Below, in pieces: positions 941-62,742 of a stretch of 64,000 bases of DNA. The DNA is from the human T2T-CHM13v2.0 reference genome, Homo sapiens: NCBI RefSeq assembly GCF_009914755.1, contig NC_060931.1; one strand, given 5' to 3'. Within the stretch, counting starts at the first letter, position 1. Each line of letters opens with the position of its first letter. The translations under genes were made by a program, and so were the position numbers. Below the pieces are notes generated by a model. It was not told the origin of the DNA, ran no database searches, and worked only from the letters and a program-made list of their open reading frames with translations.

Positions 941-1546
941 CAAAAATGAATCAAGTGGGGTTGTTGTCTAGCAACATATTCTGGTCCTTGAAACTATGTT
1001 AACGCTGGCCCTCTTAAGGCTTTCGGGGATTCCAAAATCTACTCAGCTACCGCCTTCTCACTATTTCTTGGAGTCGCTCCTTCTCTATCATTCTCCATTA
1101 ATATTAATTGAAGAAGTGAAAGCTGGAAGAATCACCTTCTGTCCTAGATTGTAGTTGTGTTGGAACACTGGACCAGGAGAGCCAGGCCCAACTCTGTCAT
1201 TAAGTGTTTTAGAACAGACACCTCAGTCACACAAAGTTTCTCTTGTATGTGCCCACCATAAACAGTTACTGGAGGATGACTCTCAAGGCCATTCTAGTGG
1301 CTGCTGGCAGTGCTTTTCCAGCCTGCTGCCCATAACTAAGGACTCAAGGCAGGGAAGACACAGGCACGGGGGTTATCTGAGGAGCGGGGACTGCCTCTTG
1401 CTATGCACAAGGTCAATGCGTTTTCACTGAGGTAGACCTGGCAGCTCCTAGGAGCTTCCATTGTGAAGTGGCAACACACAGGTGACTGGTCATCTGGGTG
1501 TGACCGCACAAGTCAAAGGCATTAATTGACCCCCACAGCAGCAGGA

Positions 1547-1618
1547 AGGGGTATAGCTCAGGGTTAGAGCATAAGACTGCAGACCGAGAGGCCACCAGTT
1601 TGATTCCAGATGCCCCCT
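1547..1618 (+). pseudogene. tRNA-Cys(GCA) degenerate copy
   Basis: AGGGGTATAGCTCAGGGTTAGAGCATAAGACTGCAGACCGAGAGGCCACCAGTTTGATTCCAGATGCCCCCT; GCA retained but anticodon stem, T stem and B-box are damaged. Confidence 0.85.
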
Positions 1619-1762
1619 CCGCATTTTCAATTTTGACATTTTTACATAGGTGCCCACATTTTAACTTCTTCCTTATTAGACACTTAGACACTAGGGTAAA
1701 TGTTTCATTTTTCTTTTTTTTTTTTTTCTTCTGAAACCAGCAAATGGTGAGGCTAGAATGTG

Positions 1763-58600: not shown

Positions 58601-61600
58601 TTGTGTTAGTTGTTGCCTGAATACCTTTTTTTTCTTCATTGTGTTATTGTTTTATAGGACCTATAAGATGTATGCTTTCAGGAGGTTCTATTTTGATGTG
58701 TATTTCAAGATTTTGTTTCAAGATTTAGAACTCCTTTTAGCATTTCTTGTAGTGCTGGCTTAGTAGCGGCAAATTCATTCAGCATTTGTTTGTCTGAAAA
58801 AGACTTTATCACTCCTTCATGTATGGAGCTTAGTTTTGCTGGATACAAAATTCTTATTTTGTTTAATGAGGCTAAAGATGGGACCCCAATCCCTCTGGTT
58901 TGCAAGGTTCCTGCTGAGAAATCTGCTGTTAATCTGATAGGCTTTCCTTTATAGTTTACCTGATGGTTTTGCCTCACAGCTCTTCAGATTCTTCCCTTTG
59001 TCTTGATGTAGACAAGTCAAGACTTTAGATATGTGCCTTGGTGATGATTTTTCTGTGATGAATTTCCTGGGTGCTATTTGAGCTTCTTATATTTGGATGT
59101 CTAGATCTCTAGCAAGGCCAGGGAAGTTTTCCCTGATTATTCCCTCAAATCGGTTTTCCAAACTTTTAGATTTCTCTTCTTCCTCAGGAACACCAATTAT
59201 TCTTAAGCTTGGTTGTTTAACATAATCCTAACTTTCTTGGAAGTTTTGTTCTTTTCTTTCCTTTTTTTTTTTTTGAGATGGAGTCTCACTCTGTCACTCA
59301 GGCTGGCTGGAGTGCAGTGGCATGATCTTGGCTCACTGCAACCTCTGCCTCCCAGGTTCAAGCGATTCTCCTTCCTCAGCCTCCTGAGTAGCTGGGTCTA
59401 CAGGTGCACACCACCACACCCAGCTAATTTTTGTATTTTTAGTAGAGGCGGGGTTTCACCATGTTTCACTCCTGACCTCAGGTAATCCACCCGCCTCAGC
59501 CTCCCAATGTGCTGGGATTACAGGCATGAACCACCATGCCCAGACTGTTCATATTTTAAAATACTTTTTTCTTTGTCTTTGTCACAGTGGGTTAATTCCA
59601 AAGCCTTGTCTTTGACCTCTGAAGTTCTTTCTTCTACTTGTTCTAGTCTACTGTTGAACCTTCCCAGTGTATTTTGTATTTCTCTAAGTGTGTCTTTCAT
59701 TTTCAGAAGTTGTCATTATTTTTTCTTCATGATACCTATTTCTCTTGGAGACTTTTTCATTCTTATCCTGTAGGGTTTTTTAAAAATTTCTTTAAGTTGG
59801 TTTTTACCTTTCTCTGGTACCATCTTAAGTAACTTAATAATTAATCTTCTGAATTCTTTATTTGGCAATTCATAGATTTATTCTTGGTTTAGATCCATTG
59901 CTGGAGAGCTAGTGTGATCTTTGCAGGGTGTTATACAACCTTGTTTTGTCATATTCCCAGAATTACTTTTCATTTGGATAGCCAGTTTCAGTGGAAAGAT
60001 TTGGAACTCAAGGGCTTCTGTCCAGATTTTTTTGTCCCATGGGGTGATCCCTTGATGTGGTGCTCTCCTCCCCTCCCTACGGATGGGGTTTCCTGAGAGC
60101 TGGACTGCAGTGATTGTTATTGCCCTTCTGGGTCTAGCCACCCAGTGGGGCTACCAGGCTCTGGGCTGGTGCTGAGGAATGTCTGCAAAGAGTCCTGTGA
60201 TGTGAGCCATCTTCAGGTCTCCCAGCTGTGGATACCAGCACGCTGCTCTGGTGGAGGTGGCAGGGGAGTGAAATGGACTCTGTGAGAGTCCTCGGTTGTA
60301 GTTTCATTTAATGCACTGATTTTCTTAAATGTTGGTTGTGCTAGCAGTAAAGCTGTCATGTGGACAGACTCAGGACCTCTGGTTAGGCAGGATGTTACTG
60401 GCAGTGGAATTAACTGTTGTTTTTGCCTTTGGTGAGGGATGCTCTGTTATACATTGCTGTAATGGCTTGAGTTAGTTGGCATTTAGGTAGGAGGTGGTGC
60501 TTTCAATAGAGCACCAGCTGTGATAGTAGAATGGGAATATAAGCTTGCCCTAAATTGGCCAGGATAAGTATTCAAGTTTCCCAGGTGATTGGTGGGGCTA
60601 TAGAGCTCCCAAGAGCTTGTCTTTTGTCTTCGGCTACCAGGGTGGGTAGAGGAAAGCCACCAGGTGGGGGCAGTGTTTAGCGGGTCTAAGCTCTGGTACT
60701 TCTTGGGCGGGGCTTGCTGCAGTCACTGTAGGGCATAGGGTGAGTGGTTCTCAGGCCAACAGAGCTATGTTCCAAGGGGGATTATGGCTGTCTCTGCTGC
60801 ATTATACAGGCTGCCAGGGAAGTGGTAGAAAGCCAGCAGTGACAGGCCTCGCCCAGCTCCCAAGCAGTCAGCAAGGCCAGTCTCACTCCCTCCATGCCCT
60901 GCCAACAGCACCGAGTTTATATCCAGGCAGCTGACACACAGGGCTGCAATCCTGCTTCAGGCTACAAGCCTCCCCACTGAGAAAGCAAGCAGGGTTTTCA
61001 GGCCTCATCCCTCCCTGTCTGCCCATGATGTCAGCTGCAGCTCCTGTACTCATACCTACACATCTCATTCATCCACTGGATTCTGCTCAGGAAAATTCGT
61101 GCTCAGTTGAAATTATTACAAAGCTCAACTAGAAGCTTCTTTTACCCTGTAGCCCCTCCCTAATTCTGCTCTCTGCCTTCCCCAAGGACCCCTGTGAGAT
61201 AAAGTCAGGAATGGCTTCCCTGGGCTTGAGCTGGAGTCTGGGAGTACCTACGGGGCCCTTCTTACTGCTTCTTCTACTTTTATATTTTGCTCAGCTCCCT
61301 AAATCCATTTCAGCTGTACATAAGGTTAAATCCTACTCCTATGATCTGGGTTTTTAGGTTCCACAGTGAAGATGTGTGTTCAGAGGCAAACCTTCCCCAC
61401 TCATACATTGGGAACTCACAGTTTTTTGTCTATCTCATAGAGTTTGCAGCAGCAAGCTGCTTCTTTAAAAGGGTCTGTGAGTTCTTTTGGTTTTTCTGGT
61501 GTGATCCTATGGTGGTTCTTGGAGCAAAAGTTCATGATGTGAATTTCCACATGCTGTTCTGTTTGTCCAGGTGGGAGCTGCACATTGGTCTTCTCTTCCA
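55658..61600 (-). mobile_element. L1P(B)-type element 5'UTR-ORF1-ORF2 5' half, with Alus at ~56171-56431, 57220-57518, 59248-59545
   Basis: ORF1 YKGKPIRLTADFS, LQEMLKGVL; endonuclease [42 protein letters not shown]. Confidence 0.92.
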
Positions 61601-62742
61601 TCCATCATTTTCTACACTCTCAGCATTTTAGTTTCCATGAACCAGTTTCTGTGACTGTGCATGCTTTCCATTTTGTCCAATTTTTGAATGTAAATGTTTA
61701 TTGCAATAATTCTGTTCTTGTACCATCATTGTACTTGAGGTGTTCAATGGGTACAAATTTTCTCTTTTGAGTTCATAGATCTTTGAATCAAGAGTAGCCT
61801 CATCTGATTTAATATGGATCACAAGAGCTTGGACTTTGTCTAATTGAATGAGGCTTTGAGAACCTTGGGATAGAGGTGAGTATATTTTGCACATGGGAGA
61901 GATGTAAGTAATTATGACCAAGAGGGCAGTTCATGGTAGATGAAACTGTTGGCCCTGAATTTTGATTTATTTCTGCATCTGTGGCCTTTACCTTCTTTTC
62001 AGATCTTCCCACTGGAGGTGAAACATGCTTTCTTGCTCTTGAGTTACAGTTTGGTCTTGTGACTGGCCGCCTTGATCATTGAGGTGTTCTCACATGTAAT
62101 GCAAATAGGGGCTTGAAAGCTGCTTTCATAGTTGGGCCTACCCCTTTGCATTTCTGCTGTCACCATAAGAAAAGTGCCCCTTGCTAGCTGCTACTCCTCC
62201 ATCCGGGATCATAGAAGGAACACACATGGAGCAGATCTAAGCCCAGCTCAGACAGAAACCAAGCACAGATGGACCCACAGCTTGAAGCGGATACACCAGG
62301 TCGAGCCCAGCCTGCATCAGCTGATTGGCATCCATGCTGCTGACCTATGAGCATGAGAATACATGCTTATTGTTTCAAGCAGCCAATTTTGGGATGATTT
62401 ATTATGACACATTGTTGTGAAAATAGCCTTGATACTTAGACCTGCCTCTCCCCCAACCCCTACTCCCATCAGGTACTGAGTAAGGGAACGGGAGGAGACC
62501 TCAGTTGAAGGAGTTCAGGTTGTGGCTACAAGGTAGAAAGATGCCATTAGACAAGTGACAGGAGGTTATTTGGGGAGTGAAGGAGTGAACTCATGGCCTG
62601 AAGAGCAGTCTCTAGTCATTTGTGGTAGGGCTGCCAATTTCCATAAGCTGGCCAGGAATTAATACAATTTACAGTGCACTATAGAATCCTTGGGTGTGGT
62701 GACACAGGTGAAATATGCTAAGGAGGAATGTCCACCAGGCAA

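What the first reader, a model, noticed from the sequence alone, without database searches (positions are those of the whole stretch)
1496..62721. Position-locked ~30-bp upstream element shared by all ten tRNA-Cys copies
Seen: starting about 51 bp 5' of each tRNA (range -48 to -53), on the tRNA strand: 1496+ GGGTGTGACCGCACAAGTCAAAGGCATTAA; 6226+ TGGTGTGTCGACACATGAAAATGGTGTTAA; 11088- GGGTGTGGCCATACAGGTTTATAGTTCTTA; 11944- GGGCGTGGGAACATAGGTGAAACAGTGTCAA; 25975+ GGGTATGGCTATAAAAGTCAAAGATATTAA; 33510+ TGGTGTGTCGACACATGAAAAGGGTGTTAA; 36421- GGGTGAGGCCACAGTGGTCAATATGCTAA; 44965- GGGTGTGGCCATACAGGTTTATAGTGGTTA; 45806- GGGTGTGGGAACATAGGTGAAACAGTGTCAA; 62692+ GGGTGTGGTGACACAGGTGAAATATGCTAA. Consensus approx GGGTGTGGCCACACAGGTNAAANNTGYTAA. 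Removing duplication pairs leaves six lineages whose other flanks I cannot align by eye. Established: type 2 Pol III promoters are internal (A/B box), TFIIIB assembles on roughly this upstream region, and GGGTGTGG is a KLF/SP GT-box. Inference: a cluster-specific external promoter element that could co-regulate the tRNA-Cys array, or the preserved 5' part of the ancestral amplified unit. I do not know whether it has been described.
Basis: partly seen in the sequence, partly recalled or inferred. Interest (0 to 1): 0.85.

Follow-up and report, generated by a model that had tools for sequence, protein, structure and literature searches.

The report
Shared upstream block, tRNA-Cys cluster
A 33-base stretch sits at the same distance in front of every cysteine-tRNA gene copy in a human chromosome 7 cluster, most likely because it was copied along with the gene and lies where the transcription machinery lands, with only weak signs that selection protects it.

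Summary
In 264 kb of the cluster, all 22 matrix hits of 16.4 bits or more lie 49-53 bp upstream of such a body. None of 16 other human tRNA-Cys genes has it, and it is not a dispersed repeat.

It is the best-kept part of a larger ancestral unit. Eleven of 13 old lineages still align to about -140. Three lineages share only about -57..+80.

Tests for selection are weak or negative:
- The element changes at about 0.66 of the flank rate in intact young duplicates (P=0.13).
- Changes do not avoid conserved positions.
- Pseudogenes keep it as well as intact genes.
- Spacing to the tRNA is unusually fixed, and identity is 0.55 against 0.43 for co-inherited flank.
- Gene conversion is visible in the cluster.

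Best reading: a co-amplified, promoter-proximal flank in the TFIIIB zone, kept mainly by descent. A selected cluster-specific promoter element remains possible. Interest is moderate to low.

The parts
1495..1527 (+). element copy A (33-nt register -52..-20), upstream of pseudogene body about 1547-1618
   Evidence: matrix hit 34.5 bits at -52; body 92% over 36 nt
6225..6257 (+). element copy B, upstream of 6277-6348 (annotated Ser-AGA5-1, a Cys-family body)
   Evidence: 31.9 bits at -52; tRNA by ARAGORN and Rfam
11057..11089 (-). element copy C, upstream of TRC-GCA19-1 (10967-11038)
   Evidence: 26.9 bits at -51
11913..11945 (-). element copy D, upstream of a degenerate Cys-like body (about 11822-11895)
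   Evidence: 18.6 bits; body shown
25974..26006 (+). element copy E, upstream of pseudogene body about 26026-26097
   Evidence: 27.7 bits at -52
33509..33541 (+). element copy F, upstream of TRC-GCA9-3 (33561-33632)
   Evidence: 32.2 bits at -52
   Evidence: 20.0 bits in the full matrix but only 6.4 bits when left out; body 90% over 41 nt
36390..36422 (-). element copy G, upstream of pseudogene body about 36303-36373
   Evidence: 17.9 bits at -49
44934..44966 (-). element copy H, upstream of TRC-GCA12-1 (44844-44915)
   Evidence: 25.4 bits at -51
45775..45807 (-). element copy I, upstream of a degenerate Cys-like body (about 45684-45755)
   Evidence: 20.4 bits at -52
62691..62723 (+). element copy J, upstream of TRC-GCA21-1 (62743-62814)
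   Evidence: 34.3 bits at -52
62591..62686 (+). weaker upstream homology (-152..-57) shared by 11 of 13 old lineages; example at copy J
   Evidence: nhmmer hit E=2.2e-10 (J was in the training set, but held-out sister copies also hit); profile

Best explanation
The block is the promoter-proximal 5' flank (about -57..-20) of one ancestral tRNA-Cys gene unit. It was carried along each time that unit was copied within the 7q36 cluster.

History as read from the sequence:
- First came 13-15 old lineages, then a roughly three-fold large segmental duplication.
- In most lineages the unit is still recognisable from about -140 to +90.
- In three lineages only a compact piece of about -57..+80 is shared.

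Inferred, not shown:
- The block lies where TFIIIC-directed TFIIIB (BRF1-TBP-BDP1) sits on a type-2 Pol III gene. This rests on established knowledge of such promoters.
- Its A/T-rich 3' half is in the place of a TATA-like box.
- If it acts at all, it acts as a modest, family-specific landing site for TFIIIB.

Its persistence and position-locking are due mainly to common descent, helped by short-unit copying and gene conversion. Purifying selection is weak at best, with a relative rate of roughly two thirds of the neighbouring flank. The 20 bases next to the gene have been scrambled, as expected from transcription-associated mutation. That scrambling makes the block stand out as an island.
For: Presence and specificity:
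- 22 of 22 matrix hits of 16.4 bits or more in 264 kb lie 49-53 bp upstream of a Cys-like body. Two apparent orphans proved to have degenerate bodies.
- 0 of 16 other tRNA-Cys genes have it, with a best score of 0.1 bits.
- Genome-wide, the core pattern gives 407 matches at up to 3 mismatches against 358 for the reversed control. All 3 exact matches and 4 of 6 matches with up to 1 mismatch are in the cluster.

Larger unit:
- Mean pairwise identity of 13 lineages is 0.29-0.41 at -140..-53, against 0.236 for shuffled controls. It is 0.48-0.64 at -52..-21, 0.22 at -12..-5, and 0.74-0.89 in the tRNA.
- An HMM of -150..-54 finds held-out sister copies of 5 lineage types (A3 and, weakly, E; D and D3; p777189; L029; p781176). 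It finds nothing at B/F/L007, C/H/L006 or p587927.

Short unit:
- p587927 matches J only at -54..+78 (85-89% identity) inside unrelated DNA.

No strong selection:
- Intact young duplicates show 13/128 variable element sites against 320/2073 in the upstream flank (odds ratio 0.62, P=0.13). The tRNA bodies show 15/285.
- Pseudogene groups show 13/99 against 195/1582.
- Variable sites have the same mean information content as random sites (0.694 against 0.691, P=0.51).
- Element identity is 54.6% for 28 intact-intact pairs and 52.7% for 10 pseudogene-pseudogene pairs (P=0.56).
- The best-scoring copies (J type, 34-36 bits) show no flank hypermutation (0/21 at -21..-1). The B and C types show 18/42 against a flank of 229/1024 (P=0.004).

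Gene conversion in the cluster:
- I against D differs by about 15% outside and 1-7% inside a 600-bp patch around a pseudogene.

Control:
- A young dispersed Cys family is uniformly alike from -385 to +135 except at -25..-1.
Against: The block is not simply uniform with the rest of the flank.
- Among the 11 lineages that share upstream homology, it is better kept than the co-inherited -130..-54 stretch: 0.546 against 0.433. It is higher in 47 of 55 pairs, and the per-column test gives P=0.019.
- Its most distal 8 bases are the best kept of all (0.64). That is the opposite of a decay with distance from the tRNA.
- The distance from element to tRNA varies with sd 1.13 nt over 13 lineages. The adjoining 46-nt upstream segment varies with sd 4.45 nt. 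The variance ratio is 15.6 (P=2e-5), or 5.3 (P=0.005) without the two extreme lineages.
- The rate estimates in intact duplicates (0.62-0.66 of flank; 0.51 in the two apparently active trios, P=0.08) point the same way as the old-lineage estimate.
- All selection tests rest on 13-30 substitutions and have low power.
- No other species and no human variation data could be examined.
Confidence: 0.55

Rival explanations
1. A selected, cluster-specific external promoter module. It would have a TATA-like box in the 3' half and a '-50 element' in the 5' half, bound by a factor such as a KLF/SP protein. It would raise or co-regulate transcription of the element-bearing tRNA-Cys genes, as upstream elements do for 7SL, vault, 4.5SH and 4.5SI genes.
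For: - The block is an island of higher identity: 0.546 against 0.433 for co-inherited flank, and 0.48-0.64 against 0.29-0.41.
- It has a sharp 5' edge, and the most distal part is the best kept.
- The spacing to the tRNA is fixed (sd 1.13 against 4.45 nt).
- The 3' half is 69% A+T against 55% background (counts). The C/H/L006 type has a TTTATAG run at -34..-28.
- The rate in intact duplicates is about 0.6 of the flank, while pseudogenes are at 1.07.
- The layout parallels the TATA-like box at -31/-24 plus a -50 element described for mammalian non-tRNA type-2 genes (PMC7279448, passages read).
Against: - The rate reduction is not significant (P=0.13).
- Substitutions hit the invariant positions. 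G at -49 changed in both L007 and L006, and there is no avoidance of high-information sites (P=0.51).
- Pseudogene lineages keep the block as well as intact ones.
- The best matches belong to copies without the flank hypermutation expected of germline-active genes.
- 16 other tRNA-Cys genes lack it. [quoted passage not shown]
- The GT-box octamer is exact in 7 of 25 copies.
- None of the 25 copies contains the CRE core TGACG (listing).
Confidence: 0.3
2. The block has a role that does not depend on an intact tRNA, which would explain why pseudogenes keep it too. Examples would be a site for a chromatin or methylation-directing factor, possibly a zinc-finger protein of the surrounding gene cluster, or part of a tDNA-type boundary element.
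For: - Pseudogene and intact lineages keep the block equally (52.7% against 54.6%).
- The D/I/D3 pseudogene unit is unusually alike over 600 bp.
- The cluster lies among zinc-finger genes (the hub's annotation table).
Against: - There is no direct evidence for this.
- Equal retention is what neutrality predicts.
- The D/I patch is more simply read as gene conversion.
- Young pseudogene groups change in the block at the flank rate (13/99 against 195/1582).
Confidence: 0.07
3. Chance similarity, a transposable-element fragment, or a conserved hairpin or cruciform formed by the TGTG...CACA inverted repeat.
For: - TGTG/CACA arms are present in about half of the lineages.
- Alu copies score 10-15 bits with the matrix.
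Against: - The leave-one-out scores are far above background.
- There is no genome-wide excess over the reversed control.
- The upstream 140 bases of J find only the three J-type copies in the genome.
- The helix has 69.2% of cells paired against 66.6% in shuffles (129 of 500 as high), with no covariation.
- Fold z-scores are -0.67, -2.23, +1.18 and -0.56.
- There is no Rfam match upstream of the tRNA apart from two chance-level rows (E above 1, 13 and 18 bits against gathering scores of 55 and 52) that overlap the tRNA.
Confidence: 0.02

Closest known systems
Anticodon- or family-specific upstream motifs of animal tRNA genes (Zhang et al. 2011, PMC3082873; abstract and passages read)
   Same: A short motif within 100 nt upstream, shared by genes for the same tRNA and absent from a genome-wide consensus. 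That paper says families read by a single anticodon also share one to three motifs (its Supplementary Figure S4B).
   Different: - This block is 33 bp long, where they searched widths of 6-10.
- It is position-locked and confined to one chromosomal cluster: 0 of 16 other Cys genes have it.
- It is shown here to be part of a co-amplified unit.
- Their supplement could not be read, so I cannot say whether part of this block is among their Cys motifs.
5'-flank architecture of mammalian non-tRNA type-2 Pol III genes: TATA-like box at -31/-24 plus a CRE or C/EBP element near -50 (7SL, vault, EBER, 4.5SH, 4.5SI; PMC7279448, passages read)
   Same: Two-part layout at about the same distances from the gene: an A/T-rich part near -30 and a partly palindromic part near -50. 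Both lie in front of a gene with internal A and B boxes.
   Different: - That paper states that vertebrate tRNA genes lack such specific boxes.
- No CRE core is present here (listing).
- The transcription start is unknown, so the register is uncertain by several bases.
- No functional test exists.
Transcription-associated hypermutation of tRNA gene flanks (Thornlow et al.; as summarised in PMC6961574, passages read)
   Same: The 20 bases next to the gene are the most divergent part. This holds in the B and C trios (18/42 against 229/1024), among old lineages (0.22 at -12..-5), and in the dispersed Cys family.
   Different: This explains why -20..-1 is scrambled. It does not explain why -52..-21 is better kept than -140..-53.
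Concerted evolution of clustered multigene families by ectopic gene conversion (general knowledge)
   Same: Patches of low divergence inside more diverged duplicates, and a short unit of 85-89% identity inside unrelated DNA.
   Different: Between old lineages no near-identical elements are seen; the maximum is 78%. Any homogenisation of the block across lineages would therefore be old.

Membership tests
Family-specific upstream motif of animal tRNA genes (Zhang et al. 2011) | Motif shared within 100 nt upstream by genes of one tRNA family, above chance | tested here: met
   Leave-one-out: 11 of 15 lineages scored 14.9 bits or more at -49..-53. 22 of 22 top hits lie upstream of Cys-like bodies.
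Family-specific upstream motif of animal tRNA genes (Zhang et al. 2011) | Shared by the genes of that anticodon in general | tested here: not met
   0 of 16 tRNA-Cys genes outside the distal chr7 cluster have it. It is specific to the cluster, not to the anticodon.
Type-2 Pol III gene with upstream TATA-like box and -50 element (PMC7279448) | A/T-rich heptamer or octamer about 24-31 bp upstream of the transcription start | tested here: inconclusive
   -33..-20 is 69% A+T (one search counts), and the C type has TTTATAG at -34..-28. The transcription start is not known.
Type-2 Pol III gene with upstream TATA-like box and -50 element (PMC7279448) | CRE or C/EBP site near -50 | tested here: not met
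   None of the 25 copies has the CRE core (listing). Only L018 and L021 have a TTGCAAC-like centre.
Type-2 Pol III gene with upstream TATA-like box and -50 element (PMC7279448) | Mutation of the boxes lowers transcription | not testable with these tools
   Needs a reporter or in vitro transcription assay.
Type-3 Pol III promoter (PSE plus TATA, as for U6 or tRNA-Sec) | Proximal sequence element about 50-65 bp upstream | tested here: not met
   A PSE consensus recalled from memory gave 4 matches in the window against 4.34 expected. None is near a tRNA.
   Exact in 4 of 11 window copies and 7 of 25 cluster copies. The site definition is recalled and was not checked against a motif library.
KLF/SP GT-box site | Occupancy by the factor | not testable with these tools
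   No ChIP data are available here.
Dispersed repeat or transposable element | Many copies genome-wide, independent of the tRNA | tested here: not met
   407 matches against 358 for the control at up to 3 mismatches. The upstream 140 bases find only 3 loci. Five dispersed Cys-like or pattern-matched loci lack the block.
Conserved nucleic-acid hairpin | Pairing kept by compensatory change | tested here: not met
   69.2% of cells paired against 66.6% in shuffles, with 1 double change. Fold z-scores are unremarkable in 3 of 4 copies.
Co-amplified flank of a duplicated gene unit | Homology continues beyond the block into neighbouring flank | tested here: met
   11 of 13 lineages align to about -140. 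B/F, C/H and p587927 share only about -57..+80.
Co-amplified flank of a duplicated gene unit | Similarity uniform across the flank (pure neutral descent) | tested here: not met
   0.546 in the block, 0.433 upstream and 0.340 at -19..-1.

The most novel reading that the evidence does not exclude
The distal 7q36 tRNA-Cys genes form a mammalian tRNA family with its own compact, self-contained gene unit of about 135 bp (-57..+80). Its upstream half would be a true external promoter: a TATA-like box plus a -50 element at fixed spacing, as in 7SL, vault and 4.5S genes. The unit that gets copied would be the stretch covered by the Pol III initiation complex. That would allow some 15 tRNA-Cys genes, embedded among cysteine-rich zinc-finger genes, to be tuned together.
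Probability: 0.25. Interest if true: 0.6.

Novelty: new member of a known kind. Interest (0 to 1): 0.33.

Why it matters
Upstream control of mammalian tRNA genes is poorly understood. The review-type text I read says vertebrate tRNA genes lack specific TATA-like or -50 elements (PMC7279448).

A block of 33 bp kept at a fixed distance in about 25 copies is a clean natural series for asking two questions: does the TFIIIB landing zone carry sequence information in a human tRNA family, and how are tRNA gene units copied?

On present evidence the block is mostly a mark of common descent. Its value is as a test case and as a marker for the history of the cluster, not as a demonstrated regulator.

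Tried and rejected
Readings tested and rejected:
- PSE / type-3 promoter: no match near any tRNA.
- Hairpin or cruciform reading of the TGTG...CACA repeat: no covariation and ordinary fold energies.
- Known RNA family in the upstream region: none.
- Dispersed repeat: rejected.

Tests that gave no signal:
- Whether recent substitutions avoid conserved positions.
- Whether intact lineages keep the block better than pseudogene lineages.

Left open:
- CpG-decay origin of the GT-box. TG/CG/CA mixtures occur at -48/-47 and -46/-45, but TG is in 17-18 of 25 copies, so the direction of change cannot be settled.
- Comparisons with transcription-factor motifs recalled from memory (CTCF, ZNF143, RUNX, bZIP) were only made by eye. 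No motif library is on hand, so they are not used as evidence.

Data I could not reach:
- Literature searches for a description of this element or of the cluster's upstream regions found only the general paper of Zhang et al.
- That paper's supplement, which may show Cys motifs, could not be read.
I therefore could not relate the block to Pol III occupancy per gene.
The proximal part of the cluster (150.48-150.58 Mb) is therefore known only from 3-kb loci.
- No genome of another mammal is reachable with these tools.

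
Full report
WHAT IS THERE

ARAGORN and Rfam recognise five tRNAs of the Cys family in the window: 6277+, 10967-, 33561+, 44844- and 62743+. 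The first reads anticodon AGA.

A blastn search with 33561-33632 finds 11 Cys-like bodies. The extra six are degenerate.

The eleventh body has a degenerate copy.

EXTENT IN THE GENOME

The window's genome could be searched. It holds at least 40 Cys-like matches. I read 30 of them with 1.5-kb flanks, plus 200 kb adjoining the window.

A 33-column matrix (-52..-20) was built from one copy per old lineage.
- It gives 22 hits of 16.4 bits or more in 264 kb.
- Twenty lie 49-53 bp upstream of a body already known.
- The other two turned out to precede further degenerate bodies.
- The next hits, at 15.3 bits or less, are mostly Alu copies.

With each lineage left out in turn:
- 11 of 15 scored 14.9 bits or more at -49..-53;
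- two were weak (K 6.4, L021 5.0);
- two failed (L003, p729628).

Specificity:
- None of 16 other tRNA-Cys genes has the block. These are on chr1, 3, 4, 14, 15 and 17, plus four proximal chr7 genes.
- The core pattern has no genome-wide excess at up to 3 mismatches: 407 matches against 358 for the reversed control. All 3 exact matches and 4 of the 6 with up to one mismatch are in the cluster.

The block is specific to the distal 7q36 cluster.

STRUCTURE OF THE FAMILY

The cluster contains about three copies of a large segmental duplication. The groups are A/E/A3, B/F/L007, C/H/L006, D/I/D3 and J/p777189. Copies are 81-94% alike over kilobases.

Under that layer lie 13-15 old lineages.

The mean pairwise identity of 13 lineages runs as follows:
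- 0.74-0.89 in the tRNA;
- 0.22 at -12..-5, which equals the value of 0.236 for shuffled flanks;
- 0.42 at -20..-13;
- 0.48-0.64 at -52..-21;
- 0.29-0.41 from -53 to about -140;
- the shuffled level beyond that.

An HMM of -150..-54 finds held-out sister copies of 5 lineage types. It finds nothing at B/F/L007, C/H/L006 or p587927.

The block is the best-kept part of a unit of about 230 bp. In three lineages only about -57..+80 is shared. One of these, p587927, is a fairly young copy: 85-89% identical to J at -54..+78, inside unrelated A/T-rich DNA.

IS THE BLOCK UNDER SELECTION?

For:
- Among the 11 lineages that share upstream homology, identity is 0.546 in the block against 0.433 in the co-inherited flank. 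This is without gap penalty and on an alignment fitted to the flank. The block is higher in 47 of 55 pairs, and the per-column test gives P=0.019.
- The most distal eight bases are the best kept.
- The distance from block to tRNA has sd 1.13 nt in 13 lineages. The neighbouring 46-nt segment has sd 4.45 nt in 11 lineages. The variance ratio is 15.6, or 5.3 without two extreme lineages.

Against:
- In young duplicates with intact bodies the block has 13/128 variable sites against 320/2073 in -600..-55 (odds ratio 0.62, P=0.13). The tRNA has 15/285.
- In pseudogene groups the block has 13/99 against 195/1582.
- The 16 variable sites of intact groups have the same mean information content as random sites (P=0.51). 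The otherwise invariant G at -49 changed in both L007 and L006.
- Intact-intact and pseudogene-pseudogene pairs are equally alike in the block: 54.6% and 52.7%.
- The J-type copies have the best matrix scores, yet they lack the hypermutation at -21..-1 (0/21). The B and C trios show it at 18/42 against 229/1024 (P=0.004).

Every count here is small, so moderate constraint cannot be excluded. Two independent estimates both put the relative rate near 0.6-0.7.

ANOTHER SOURCE OF THE ISLAND

Divergence between the large duplicates is patchy.
- I against D differs by about 15% at -600..-201 and at +400..+899.
- It differs by only 1-7% at -200..+399, around a pseudogene.
- That is what gene conversion leaves behind.

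Together with the p587927 short unit, this shows that pieces containing the tRNA and its near flank are copied or converted within the cluster. The near flank would then have a younger common ancestor than the far flank. That raises identity and lowers indel load without any selection.

One thing it does not readily explain: the farthest part of the block is the best kept.

WHAT IT MOST LIKELY IS

I read the block as the promoter-proximal flank of one ancestral tRNA-Cys gene, co-amplified with it.
- It covers the stretch where TFIIIB is placed on a type-2 gene (established knowledge; not tested here).
- Its 3' half is 69% A+T against 55% background. The C type even has TTTATAG at -34..-28.
- Its layout recalls the TATA-like box plus -50 element described for 7SL, vault, EBER, 4.5SH and 4.5SI genes (PMC7279448, passages). 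It has no CRE core.
- It has no PSE, no hairpin signal and no Rfam match.
- The scrambled 20 bases next to the gene fit transcription-associated mutation, as summarised in PMC6961574 (passages). The same pattern appears in a young dispersed Cys family that is otherwise uniform from -385 to +135.

My odds:
- about 0.55 that descent plus copying or conversion is the main cause, with at most weak selection;
- about 0.30 that it is a selected cluster-specific promoter element;
- the remainder on other roles.

NOVELTY

Family-specific upstream motifs of animal tRNA genes were reported in general by Zhang et al. 2011 (PMC3082873; abstract and passages). Their Cys motifs would be in a supplement I could not read.

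Seven full-text searches found no description of this block.

I rate it a new member of a known kind, of moderate to low interest unless the functional tests listed come out positive.

Noticed in passing
window 33866-33937 (-), element 33955-33987: An eleventh Cys-like pseudogene lies 230 bp downstream of TRC-GCA9-3 in convergent orientation. It has a degenerate copy of the block.
   Followed up: yes
window 6277-6348 (+): The gene annotated tRNA-Ser-AGA5-1 is a Cys-family body (94% identical to 33561-33632). Its anticodon reads AGA instead of GCA, so its charging identity is doubtful.
   Followed up: partly
window about 45355-45955 and its paralogs near 11500-12100: A 600-bp patch around the D/I pseudogene differs by 1-7% between duplicates whose flanks differ by about 15%. 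This looks like a gene-conversion tract. L028/L029 and J/p777189 also show patchy divergence.
   Followed up: partly
L031 (chr7:150587850-150587981, - strand): A copy of the J-type unit is limited to -54..+78 (85-89% identity) inside unrelated A/T-rich DNA, with no obvious target-site duplication. How such a short piece was copied is unexplained.
   Followed up: partly
L011, L020, L022, L030 (chr14, chr15, chr1, chr17) and L052 (chr3): A dispersed tRNA-Cys family shares about 520 bp (-385..+135), including part of an Alu. Only -25..-1 is hypervariable, a clean example of flank hypermutation in young paralogs.
   Followed up: yes
L053 (chr11) and L054 (chr10): The first 44 or so bases of a tRNA-Cys are inserted between direct repeats of 12-13 bp, as if a 5' tRNA half had been retroposed.
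   Followed up: no
window 40941-41032 (-): ARAGORN calls a 92-nt tRNA-Thr here. Rfam finds no tRNA, so it is probably a false call.
   Followed up: partly
L023 (chr7:150596982-150597053, -): A Cys gene inside the cluster has a CpG-rich upstream region and no block (0.1 bits). Its best, weak match sits at the same register (-50). Together with TG/CG/CA mixtures at -48/-47 and -46/-45 in the copies, this hints that the GT-box may be a decayed CpG-rich box.
   Followed up: partly
window 44750-44843 (-): Right after the 3' end of TRC-GCA12-1 the sequence runs into a poly-T stretch and an Alu. Homology with its paralogs ends at about +72 to +88.
   Followed up: no
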